Shown: piece by piece, positions 57,089-58,268 of the stretch | How positions within the stretch are numbered: position 1 is the first letter of the stretch | Layout: each line of letters begins with the position of its first letter | NCBI GenBank assembly: GCA_000146045.2 | Contig: BK006941.2 | Coordinates: 64,001-128,000 of the forward strand | Length of the DNA stretch: 64,000 bases | Origin: TPA_inf: Saccharomyces | Lineage: Eukaryota | Direction of reading: 5' to 3' | Program-made: the position numbers and the translations under genes | Notes under the pieces: generated by a model | What the model was told of the DNA's origin: nothing | Seen by the model: the letters and a program-made list of their open reading frames with translations, nothing else | The model's database searches: none

Positions 57089-57819
57089 AATAGACGAACT
57101 TAGATGACAATACCAAATAGCGAAGGAACGGCAAAAGAATAGGTACACAAATGTTATGAGAACTGGAATCAAAACAAGCTATTGTTTGTCGACGAATAGT
57201 AATGTTACTAGTATATTATGTGCGGTGATAATATGATATAAATCGCGAAAAGGGTAAACCCAGTAAAAACTGAAATGCAAGATAAATAACGTAATGGGGT
57301 GATGTATGATATCGTATAAAACACAAGAAAGGATAACAGCACTATCATGCAAAATTGCTTATTTCTGGTATATTCTGGATTCCGAATGACACTTCCCTTA
57401 CTGGAAAATCGAATTCAAGTGACCATTTAAATGGTCACCTATTTCTCAGGATGACCGCTAATTCTTCTCATCAGGGTTTCCCAAGTTGTTAGCAAACTGT
57501 ATTGATATCTTTTTGCGGGAGTGAAACCAACTATTCAGCTCAGTATCGGATTAATCTCTCCACTTAATGCTACGGAGTTCTTCCAAACATTAGTACTGGT
57601 GCCAGTATCAGCACCACATCAACAGGTGAACTCAAAATTACATTAGTCAGGAGCAGTACACCCGTTAATCGTGGGAATCTCTGTACTGAGGGTCAACTAC
57701 GTATCGCGGAACTAGGGGTCCACTAGTGTATGCGACTGCGATTCATATAACACTTTAACGTCAAAACCGTATACAGTCCTCATCCGCCTTGGGGGCCAGC
57801 ATATTATATATAAAAACTC

Positions 57820-58155
57820 CTGAAAAACACTTACCCAGAGGTACGATAATGAATGACGCTTATGTGATTTATGGTTAACGCAGTACCCAAGACAAGTATG
57901 CAGCGTTAACTCCCAATCAAAGAAAATATAGTGGATTCTAATCTGACGAACTACGGACAGTAATTGGTATTTTTACTCATTAGTGACTTTGGTAATGCCC
58001 TATATTTCACTAGAAGGTGTCACAGTGTCACAAATTTTACATCACAGTTCCCTTTCGTAAGATCAAGAATATGGCTGACTATAGTGGACATCTTCTTACA
58101 CCGTATATAGTAATATATTGCTAATATGAGCACTAGTTGATTCTTGTTCCAACAG
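57820..58155 (-). mobile_element. Diverged delta-like LTR remnant ending 113 bp upstream of tRNA-Lys(CUU); left boundary uncertain
   Basis: Reverse complement from 58155 reads TGTTGGAACAAGAATCAACTAGTGCTCATATTAGCAATATATTACTATATACGGTGTAAGAAGATG..., aligning to the delta start (TGTTGGAATAGAAATCAACTA...ATATACGGTGTTAGAAGATG) at roughly 75% identity; no clean far terminus was found. Confidence 0.35.
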
Positions 58156-58268
58156 TATATTCCAAACATGTGTTAATCACGCGTTGATACAATGTGGCTC
58201 GGCTACAAATCAGTTATTAACATCGTGAGCTATGTTTCCCTGAAATGGGGACGTTTTCCAACGAATTA

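What the first reader, a model, noticed from the sequence alone, without database searches (positions are those of the whole stretch)
57180..58268. About 1 kb unclassified repeat block upstream of tRNA-Lys(CUU): diverged delta-like terminus plus a perfect 20-bp palindrome
The interval between the MCM6 promoter and tK(CUU) has no ORF. It ends (minus orientation) in TGTTGGAACAAGAATCAACTA..., which resembles a delta 5' end but is only about 75% identical. Its other boundary is unclear, so it is either an old, decayed LTR family or a composite of several fragments. Inside it, 57419-57438 is a perfect palindrome GTGACCATTTAAATGGTCAC, extending to 24 bp with one mismatch. Chance expectation for a perfect 20-mer palindrome in 64 kb is about 0.06. 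It could be a hairpin-forming site, a protein-binding dyad, or the junction of an inverted duplication.
Basis: seen in the sequence. Interest (0 to 1): 0.55.

Follow-up and report, generated by a model that had tools for sequence, protein, structure and literature searches.

The report
Decayed Ty1 LTR debris upstream of tRNA
The "1 kb repeat block" is not one repeat but two decayed, oppositely oriented Ty1 LTR remnants (already catalogued in 2012) flanking about 640 bp of unclassifiable spacer in the usual retrotransposon landing zone upstream of a yeast tRNA gene. The perfect 20-bp palindrome sits inside one remnant and looks like a chance product of decay.

Summary
The window is S. cerevisiae S288C chrVII. 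The palindrome (57419-57438), the lack of ORFs and the delta-like minus-strand terminus at 58154 are all real, but the interval is a composite, not one repeat.

- **Left LTR:** 57161-57448 (+) is a near full-length, decayed Ty1-family solo LTR (nhmmer E=1e-16; about 72% identical to live deltas; 34-nt deletion; ends ...CACCTATTTCTCA).
- **Right LTR:** 58087-58154 (-) is only the first ~82 positions of a second delta (E=2.4e-10).
- **Prior annotation:** Carr et al. 2012 list both as truncated, inactive, fixed Ty1 solo LTRs.
- **Middle:** the 638 bp between them match no Ty1-Ty4 or Ty3p LTR tested, no full-length Ty1, no Pfam or Rfam family, no protein, and no orthologous DNA in four sister species.
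- **Palindrome:** it lies in U5 of the left LTR, 10 bp from its end. It is not the family consensus (11/20 match), and complementarity stops at the arms. It is invariant in 14 strains, but so is unremarkable DNA around it. About 14 such palindromes are expected by chance genome-wide.
- **Hotspot:** three of ten other assemblies carry extra solo LTRs here, S. mikatae has a full Ty1, and S. paradoxus has an inversion breakpoint.

Verdict: ordinary and already known.

The parts
57161..57448 (+). Decayed, nearly full-length Ty1-family solo LTR (delta), 288 bp with a ~34-nt internal deletion. Its 5' TGT has mutated to AAC; its 3' end ...CACCTATTTCTCA is retained.
   Evidence: nhmmer with an HMM of four real deltas hits 57164-57384 at HMM positions 4-229, E=1.1e-16. 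An end-to-end pairwise alignment to a real Ty1 delta gives 72% identity over 277 pairs. It is collinear with 9 deltas from 5 species. Carr et al. 2012 list chrVII_st87+_TY1 at 121168-121340, which is window 57165-57337.
57419..57438 (.). Perfect 20-bp palindrome GTGACCATTTAAATGGTCAC, inside the U5 end of the left LTR and 10 bp from the LTR's 3' end. It lies about 512-531 bp upstream of the MCM6 ATG.
   Evidence: Verified. It aligns to delta consensus CAAYAATYATCTYAAAATTCACC, with 11/20 matches to the delta at 50939. There is no complementarity beyond the arms. The DNA hairpin folds at -7.2 kcal/mol, z=-2.9. It is identical in 14 other S. cerevisiae assemblies or contigs.
57449..58086 (.). 638 bp of unclassified, non-coding DNA specific to S. 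cerevisiae among the species that could be compared. GC rises to 0.48 at 57600-57799. Origin unknown.
   Evidence: No significant similarity to the rest of delta, to tau or to the left LTR, nor to the Ty3p LTR from the paper or a sigma sequence recalled from memory. None to a genuine full-length Ty1 by blastn or tblastx. No match to non-LTR DNA of S. kudriavzevii, S. uvarum, S. mikatae or S. paradoxus at this locus. Pfam on six frames found nothing, Rfam nothing, and an 86-aa open frame had 0 hits among 1.84 billion representatives. Carr et al.'s RepeatMasker run annotated nothing here.
58087..58154 (-). 68-bp 5' fragment of a second Ty1-family LTR (delta positions 1-82, with a 14-nt deletion), in minus orientation. 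Its intact TGTTGGAA terminus lies 114 bp upstream of the tRNA.
   Evidence: nhmmer E=2.4e-10. blastn gives 85% over 53 nt to the window's own delta. Carr et al. 2012 list chrVII_st88-_TY1 at 122093-122145, which is window 58090-58142.
58155..58267 (.). tRNA-proximal spacer. It aligns with other species only in the last ~14-23 bp before the tRNA.
58268..58342 (+). tRNA-Lys(CUU) gene, the Pol III gene that makes the upstream kilobase a Ty1/Ty2/Ty4 integration target.
   Evidence: ARAGORN. Rfam RF00005 scores 67.8 bits. No variable site among 11 strains.

Best explanation
The interval between the conserved MCM6 promoter (which ends at about 57156) and tK(CUU) is a retrotransposon graveyard, not a functional element or a new repeat family.

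How it arises (established knowledge): Ty1, Ty2 and Ty4 integrase complexes are targeted to a ~1 kb window upstream of Pol III-transcribed genes. Integrated elements are later reduced to solo LTRs by LTR-LTR recombination. The solo LTRs are then truncated by further insertions and deletions and decay neutrally.

What is shown here: two such relics survive in S288C and are fixed in the species. One is a near-complete delta in + orientation (57161-57448). The other is a 68-bp 5' stump of a delta in - orientation (58087-58154).

What is inferred: the 638 bp between them are most likely unrecognisable debris or filler left by older rounds of insertion and deletion. The alternative is ancestral spacer that the sister species lost. 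The 20-bp palindrome is a by-product of neutral decay of the LTR's U5 region. It may have been sharpened by a small templated mutation, but this was not tested. I assign it no function.
For: - **LTR identity and extent:**
- **Independent published annotation:** both pieces are listed as truncated, inactive, fixed Ty1 solo LTRs, with the same sequence in the published LTR alignment.
- **Live hotspot:** among 10 other S. cerevisiae assemblies, three carry additional solo LTRs inside the block, each with a ~5-bp target duplication. These are a Ty1 delta at 58119-58123, a Ty2-like delta at 58004-58008 and a tau at about 57968-57972.
- **Sister species:** S. mikatae has a full-length Ty1 plus three delta pieces here. 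S. kudriavzevii and S. uvarum have their own deltas. S. paradoxus CBS432 has a delta 104 bp upstream of the tRNA that forms one breakpoint of a KEX1-ARO8-MCM6 inversion.
- **Complete turnover:** the non-LTR DNA of this interval does not align between any pair of species, whereas the flanks align at 80-87%.
- **No sign of constraint:** variable sites per 100 bp among 11 strains are 2.4 (left LTR), 3.8 (middle) and 2.9 (right LTR), against 1.6 in the promoter and 0 in the tRNA.
- **Palindrome:** not the family consensus, no extension beyond the arms, chance expectation 0.077 per window.
- **Literature:** a ~1 kb Ty1/2/4 target window upstream of Pol III genes, and LTRs and tRNA genes as rearrangement sites (PMC5911963; bioRxiv 10.1101/076562).
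Against: - The origin of the 638-bp middle is not demonstrated. It matches nothing, so 'debris' is an inference from context.
- Its central GC (0.42-0.48) is above that of the flanking LTRs and promoter (0.31-0.37). This hints at a different, possibly coding-derived, source.
- No target-site duplication can be recognised around the left LTR (ATGAG versus GGATG, read).
- A perfect 20-mer has p of about 0.08 in a single window. It is also invariant in all 14 strains examined, so a function cannot be formally excluded.
- The S. paradoxus counterpart of the MCM6-proximal side could not be retrieved. The age of the left LTR, the palindrome and the middle relative to the cerevisiae-paradoxus split is therefore unknown.
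Confidence: 0.85

Rival explanations
1. The whole ~1 kb is one element: a diverged LTR of an old, unclassified family, or a short non-autonomous element with delta-like inverted termini.
For: Both ends carry delta-like 5' termini pointing inward, with a 13-nt inverted match between 57160-57172 and 58137-58149. The interior matches no known Ty.
Against: - The left piece is collinear with a complete delta, including its own 3' end at 57448. It is a self-contained LTR, not the terminus of a larger unit.
- The right piece is a truncated copy of the same family.
- No second copy of the interior exists in the 64-kb window, in the Ty reference library, or in 16 Mb of Ty-flank text.
- No Saccharomyces LTR of ~1 kb is known (own knowledge).
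Confidence: 0.03
2. The palindrome is functional. It could be an LTR-derived binding dyad for a dimeric factor acting on MCM6, whose ATG lies ~520 bp away, or a hairpin/cruciform site that affects replication or stability.
For: It is perfect, invariant in 14 S. cerevisiae strains and lies in a 131-bp stretch free of SNPs. It is within promoter range of MCM6. The hairpin folds better than 197 of 200 shuffles.
Against: - It sits in a decayed solo LTR with no detectable counterpart at this locus in S. mikatae, S. kudriavzevii or S. uvarum, so there is no deep conservation.
- The SNP-free gap is about what 33 sites in 994 bp give by chance (my rough estimate of the expected longest gap is ~105 bp, against 131 bp observed).
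- Its core CC(A/T)8GG does not fit the Mcm1/SRF CC(A/T)6GG box. A genuine conserved box of that type sits at 57070-57085.
- Ten-bp arms are far below the lengths that make palindromes recombinogenic in yeast. The general principle is in PMC7999016; a threshold of ~70 bp is from my memory of Lisnic et al. 2009.
- About 14 such palindromes are expected per genome by chance.
Confidence: 0.05
3. The palindrome marks the centre of an inverted duplication or fold-back repair event.
For: It has perfect symmetry with no spacer. The block as a whole has inverted LTR ends.
Against: Complementarity outside the arms is 3/10, 6/30 and 34/110, which is the random level. Both arms lie within a stretch that is collinear with a single delta U5.
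Confidence: 0.01
4. The 638-bp middle is foreign or relocated DNA. It could be a decayed fragment of a host gene or of an undescribed element, or DNA captured during double-strand-break repair, that entered between two older LTRs in the S. cerevisiae lineage.
For: It is absent from the orthologous interval of S. mikatae, S. kudriavzevii and S. uvarum, although the flanks align at 80-83% with S. mikatae. Central GC of 0.42-0.48 is coding-like. An 86-codon stop-free stretch exists.
Against: - No protein, Pfam, Ty1 or Rfam similarity in any frame.
- The non-LTR DNA of the other species does not align between them either. Non-alignability is therefore the norm for this interval and needs no special event.
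- An 86-codon open stretch in 1.1 kb over six frames is unremarkable.
Confidence: 0.2

Closest known systems
Ty1/Ty2 solo LTRs (delta elements) of S. cerevisiae. Specifically the degenerate 'inactive, fixed' class of Carr, Bensasson & Bergman 2012, entries chrVII_st87+_TY1 and chrVII_st88-_TY1.
   Same: Both pieces show sequence homology to delta. The left piece covers the whole LTR and the right piece the first 82 positions. The right piece keeps the TGTTGGAA 5' terminus and the left piece the ...TCTCA 3' terminus. Both lie within ~1.1 kb upstream of a tRNA gene and are fixed in the species.
   Different: They are much more diverged than active deltas (about 60-72% identity, depending on the alignment). 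The left copy has lost its 5' TG and ~34 nt internally, and its target duplication is not recognisable. The published annotation stops at window 57337, whereas I find the LTR runs on to its natural 3' end at 57448, which places the palindrome inside it.
Nested LTR clusters at tRNA genes, for example the tau/delta cluster next to tH(GUG) in this same window (46772-47700).
   Same: Several LTR pieces of different ages and orientations are packed upstream of a Pol III gene. Additional insertions are polymorphic among strains. In sister species the site serves as a rearrangement breakpoint.
   Different: Here the two relics are separated by 638 bp of DNA that no Ty library explains. At the tH(GUG) cluster the pieces abut each other.
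Recombinogenic or cruciform-forming palindromes in yeast (long inverted repeats such as inverted Alu or Ty pairs).
   Same: Perfect symmetry with no spacer.
   Different: The arms are 10 bp rather than tens to hundreds of bp, and there is no evidence of instability. The sequence is identical in 14 strains.

Membership tests
Ty1/Ty2 LTR (delta): left piece 57161-57448 | Sequence homology to delta across U3-R-U5 | tested here: met
   nhmmer E=1.1e-16 for HMM positions 4-229. An end-to-end alignment gives 72% identity over 277 pairs. It is collinear with 9 deltas.
Ty1/Ty2 LTR (delta): left piece 57161-57448 | Terminal 5'-TG...CA-3' (TGTTGGAA...TCTCA) | tested here: inconclusive
   The 3' end ...TTTCTCA is present at 57442-57448. 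The 5' end reads AACTGGAAT instead of TGTTGGAAT, so TGT has been lost by mutation.
Ty1/Ty2 LTR (delta): left piece 57161-57448 | Length about 332-338 bp | tested here: inconclusive
   It is 288 bp. The shortfall is explained by one ~34-nt deletion and small indels.
Ty1/Ty2 LTR (delta): left piece 57161-57448 | 5-bp target-site duplication | tested here: not met
   The flanks are ATGAG and GGATG. This is expected after ~28% divergence, or after recombination between different elements, so it does not exclude membership. The fresh insertions in L002 and L007 do show 5-bp duplications.
Ty1/Ty2 LTR (delta): left piece 57161-57448 | Location within ~1 kb upstream of a Pol III-transcribed gene | tested here: met
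   It lies 820-1107 bp upstream of tK(CUU). The target window is as given in PMC5911963.
Ty1/Ty2 LTR (delta): right piece 58087-58154 | Sequence homology and the 5' terminus TGTTGGAA | tested here: met
   nhmmer E=2.4e-10 for HMM positions 1-82. The TGTTGGAA terminus is intact at 58154-58147. Nothing beyond position 82 is detectable, so this is a fragment.
Truncated Ty1 element (LTR plus internal sequence) | Primer-binding site TGGTAGCGCC and gag sequence directly after the LTR | tested here: not met
   After 57448 the sequence is GGATGACCGC. There is no blastn or tblastx match of 57449-58086 to a genuine S. mikatae Ty1 whose LTR is followed by TGGTAGCGCC. Carr et al. list no internal fragment here.
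Ty3 (sigma), Ty3p, Ty4 (tau) LTRs: middle 57449-58086 | Sequence homology to the LTR | tested here: not met
   Smith-Waterman against shuffles gave p=0.1-1.0 for tau and p=0.3-0.7 for Ty3p (sequence from File S1) and sigma. The sigma sequence was recalled from memory. The Ty5 LTR was not tested directly and is covered only by Carr et al.'s negative RepeatMasker result.
Recombinogenic or cruciform palindrome | Long arms (tens to hundreds of bp) with little or no spacer | tested here: not met
   The arms are 10 bp, or 12 with a mismatch. The hairpin folds at -7.2 kcal/mol.
Mcm1/ECB-type MADS-box site | CC(A/T)6GG core | tested here: not met
   The palindrome core is CCATTTAAATGG, i.e. CC(A/T)8GG. 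The consensus is from my own knowledge.

The most novel reading that the evidence does not exclude
The 638 bp between the two inverted delta relics are the remnant of something not yet described in Saccharomyces. That could be an extinct element, or DNA captured at a break in this hotspot. Alternatively or additionally, the LTR-derived palindrome has been co-opted as an S. cerevisiae-specific cis element upstream of MCM6.
Probability: 0.06. Interest if true: 0.4.

Novelty: already known. Interest (0 to 1): 0.08.

Why it matters
It matters little in itself. This is a textbook example of Ty turnover upstream of a tRNA gene, and both LTR relics are in a published re-annotation.

Three modest points are useful:
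- The left relic is a complete LTR reaching 57448, about 110 bp longer than annotated.
- The locus illustrates how completely such intervals are rewritten between sister species while a conserved promoter box and the tRNA stay fixed.
- The same site is an inversion breakpoint in S. paradoxus CBS432.

A perfect short palindrome in such DNA should not be read as functional without experimental evidence.

Tried and rejected
- **Decayed Ty1 gag after the left LTR:** rejected. There was no match to a Ty1 5' region recalled from memory. That recalled sequence was later shown to be 86% identical to a real S. mikatae Ty1, and the middle did not match the real element either.
- **Continuation of the right delta into the middle:** rejected.
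- **Homology of the middle to a 154-aa ORF in the S. kudriavzevii intergenic region:** none. That ORF has no Pfam family.
- **Apparent similarity of 57157-57215 to S. mikatae spacer:** not significant, p=0.33. The delta alignment of that stretch stands.
- **Fetching S. paradoxus:** searches with MCM6 and KEX1 returned no separate S. paradoxus cluster. YIP4 worked, but the locus is inverted there.
- **Metagenome scan with the conserved MCM6 promoter box:** returned only four S. cerevisiae contigs.
- **S. mikatae rearrangement:** I first took the S. mikatae locus for a translocation breakpoint. A longer flank showed a full-length Ty1 with collinear MCM6.
- **ARS consensus scan of 56900-58700:** no match.

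Full report
**Identity of the window.** The 1017-aa ORF at 53854-56907 (-) is 100% identical to S. cerevisiae S288C Mcm6. The 203-aa ORF at 58694-59305 (-) is Emp24. ARAGORN and Rfam place tRNA-Lys(CUU) at 58268-58342. Ty annotations published for sacCer2 map onto the window with a constant offset of 64003. For example, the delta at chrVII 114943-115273 is window 50940-51270. The window is therefore S288C chrVII, roughly 64-128 kb.

**Checking the observation.** The palindrome GTGACCATTTAAATGGTCAC at 57419-57438 is exact. It reaches 24 bp with one mismatched pair and is the only perfect palindrome of 16 bp or more in the window besides a (TA)17 run. That corresponds to roughly 14 per 12-Mb genome (my extrapolation). 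One such palindrome in a scan of all windows is therefore expected. The interval has no real ORF: the longest is 57 aa from a TTG start and the longest stop-free run is 86 codons. The minus-strand terminus TGTTGGAACAAGAATCAACTA at 58154 is a delta 5' end.

**What the block is made of.** I built an HMM from four genuine deltas. Two came from the window and two were fresh insertions found in other strains. I then scanned 56900-58400.
- **Two hits.** There were two significant hits in opposite orientations. One was 57164-57384 (+) against HMM positions 4-229 (E=1.1e-16). The other was 58154-58087 (-) against positions 1-82 (E=2.4e-10).
- **Left piece.** It aligns end to end with a real 332-bp Ty1 delta at 72% identity over 277 pairs, with one ~34-nt deletion. 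It finishes with ...CACCTATTTCTCA at 57448, the natural delta 3' end. A MAFFT alignment with nine deltas from five species is collinear throughout, at 56-63% identity in that alignment.
- **Right piece.** It is only a 68-bp stump. Nothing beyond delta position 82 is detectable.
- **Published annotation.** Carr, Bensasson & Bergman 2012 (PMC3511429, Files S2/S3) list exactly these two pieces. chrVII_st87+_TY1 at 121168-121340 is window 57165-57337, and chrVII_st88-_TY1 at 122093-122145 is window 58090-58142. Both are recorded as truncated solo Ty1 LTRs, 'Inactive' and 'Fixed' (present in 21/21 and 22/22 scored strains), with no SGD name. The first bases of their aligned sequence match the window.

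The 'block' is a composite.

**The middle, 57449-58086 (638 bp).** It matched nothing in any test:
- The remainder of delta, tau and the left LTR: Smith-Waterman against shuffles, p of 0.07 or higher.
- The Ty3p LTR taken from File S1, and a sigma sequence recalled from memory.
- A genuine full-length Ty1 from S. mikatae, by blastn and tblastx.
- Pfam in six frames.
- Rfam, which finds only the tRNA.
- 1.84 billion protein representatives, queried with the 86-aa open stretch.

There is no primer-binding site after the left LTR: the sequence is GGATGACCGC against TGGTAGCGCC in the real Ty1. The left piece is therefore a solo LTR, not a truncated element. Six 16-18-mers from the middle, and the palindrome core, are absent from the Ty reference library and from 16 Mb of supplementary Ty-flank text. 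GC reaches 0.48 at 57600-57799, against 0.31-0.37 in the promoter and LTRs. I cannot explain this.

**Comparative context.** I retrieved the orthologous loci of four species: S. kudriavzevii (L011), S. uvarum (L012), S. mikatae (L021) and S. paradoxus CBS432 (L019).
- **What is conserved.** The MCM6 promoter is conserved up to window ~57147-57156, along with the tRNA plus its last 14-23 upstream bases and the EMP24 side.
- **What is not.** Everything between is species-specific. The non-LTR DNA there does not align between any pair of species.
- **Each species has its own Ty material.** S. kudriavzevii has a near-full delta (-) 100 bp from the tRNA, a delta fragment and a tau-like stretch that I recognised by eye only. 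S. uvarum has a delta (-). S. mikatae has a complete Ty1 with Gag and Pol ORFs plus three further delta pieces.
- **S. paradoxus inversion.** In CBS432 the KEX1-ARO8-MCM6 segment is inverted relative to the other four species. A delta lying 104 bp upstream of tK(CUU) sits at the breakpoint. This fits the published association of rearrangement breakpoints with tRNAs and Tys (bioRxiv 10.1101/076562).

**Variation within S. cerevisiae.** Ten assemblies are 95.4-98.5% identical across the intergenic region. Three of them carry additional solo LTRs inside the block, each with a ~5-bp target duplication. These are a Ty1 delta at 58119-58123, a Ty2-like delta at 58004-58008 and a tau at about 57968-57972. 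This is the behaviour expected of the ~1 kb Ty1/Ty2/Ty4 target window upstream of Pol III genes (PMC5911963).

**The palindrome.** It lies in U5 of the left LTR, 10 bp from the LTR end. This is where live deltas read CAAYAATYATCTYAAAATTCACC, just after the Gag ATG. Only 11 of 20 positions match the nearest delta, so it is not part of the family consensus.
- **No wider symmetry.** Complementarity stops at the arms, with 3/10, 6/30 and 34/110 matches further out. This excludes an inverted-duplication junction.
- **Weak hairpin.** As single-stranded DNA it forms an 8-bp stem with a 4-nt loop at -7.2 kcal/mol (z=-2.9).
- **Too short for fragility.** Palindrome recombinogenicity rises with arm length (PMC7999016). 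From memory, the threshold measured in yeast is about 70 bp (Lisnic et al. 2009). Ten-bp arms are far below that.
- **Invariance is not informative.** It is identical in all 14 S. cerevisiae sequences examined. However, 11 collinear strains show only 2.4-3.8 variable sites per 100 bp across the block. The 131-bp SNP-free stretch that contains the palindrome is close to the longest gap expected for 33 sites in 994 bp.
- **No known motif.** Its core CC(A/T)8GG does not fit the Mcm1-type CC(A/T)6GG box. A true box of that type, TTTCCTAAAAAGGAAA, sits in the conserved promoter at 57070-57085.

I conclude that the palindrome is a chance product of LTR decay. A small templated (quasi-palindrome-correcting) mutation could have perfected it, but I could not test that.

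**Verdict.** There is no 1-kb repeat. There are two decayed, already catalogued Ty1 LTR relics, an unclassifiable spacer and a short palindrome inside one relic, all in a well-understood insertion hotspot. The main gap is the missing S. paradoxus sequence upstream of MCM6. It would date the left LTR, the palindrome and the middle.

Noticed in passing
L019 (S. paradoxus CBS432, CP020248.1 114804-131511), 1-6700; corresponds to window ~48350-58250: The KEX1-ARO8-MCM6 segment (~10 kb) is inverted in S. paradoxus CBS432 relative to S. cerevisiae, S. mikatae, S. kudriavzevii and S. uvarum. One breakpoint is a delta at L019 6329-6598, 104 bp upstream of tK(CUU). The other presumably lies near the tH(GUG) LTR cluster. 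I did not check whether it is among the 26 inversions of Yue et al.
   Followed up: partly
L021 (S. mikatae IFO 1815) 2452-8361: A full-length Ty1 with intact LTRs, the primer-binding site TGGTAGCGCC and long Gag and Pol ORFs sits between MCM6 and tK(CUU). Further delta pieces flank it at 2125-2389, 2391-2453 and 8359-8636.
   Followed up: yes
L001, L002, L007 (other S. cerevisiae assemblies); window 57968-57972, 58119-58123, 58004-58008: Three independent, strain-specific solo-LTR insertions lie inside the block: tau, Ty1 delta and Ty2-like delta. Each has a ~5-bp target duplication.
   Followed up: yes
window 57070-57085: TTTCCTAAAAAGGAAA is a palindromic CC(A/T)6GG box in the MCM6 promoter. 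It is conserved, with one A/G change, in S. mikatae, S. kudriavzevii and S. uvarum. It looks like an Mcm1-type early-cell-cycle box (own knowledge, not tested).
   Followed up: partly
L011 (S. kudriavzevii ZP591) 2837-3301 (-): A 154-aa ORF (MQIDNETLSDSEPGYMC...) lies in the enlarged MCM6-tK(CUU) intergenic region of S. kudriavzevii. It has no called gene, no Pfam family and no counterpart in the S. cerevisiae window.
   Followed up: partly
window 46772-47700 and 50939-51269: A nested LTR cluster sits next to tH(GUG): a delta fragment, a complete tau at 46855-47225, a delta (-) at 47226-47505 and a delta (+) fragment at 47506-47700. A separate complete delta lies between KEX1 and ARO8.
   Followed up: partly
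window 15003-15037: A (TA)17 microsatellite. It is the only other long perfect palindrome in the window.
   Followed up: no
L003, L004, L008, L009 versus window 53854-56907: MCM6 is called as 1014 aa in several S. cerevisiae strains against 1017 aa in S288C, an in-frame length polymorphism.
   Followed up: no
window 57600-57799: GC content of 0.48 in the centre of the unclassified spacer. This is well above the surrounding LTRs and promoter (0.31-0.37) and is unexplained.
   Followed up: partly
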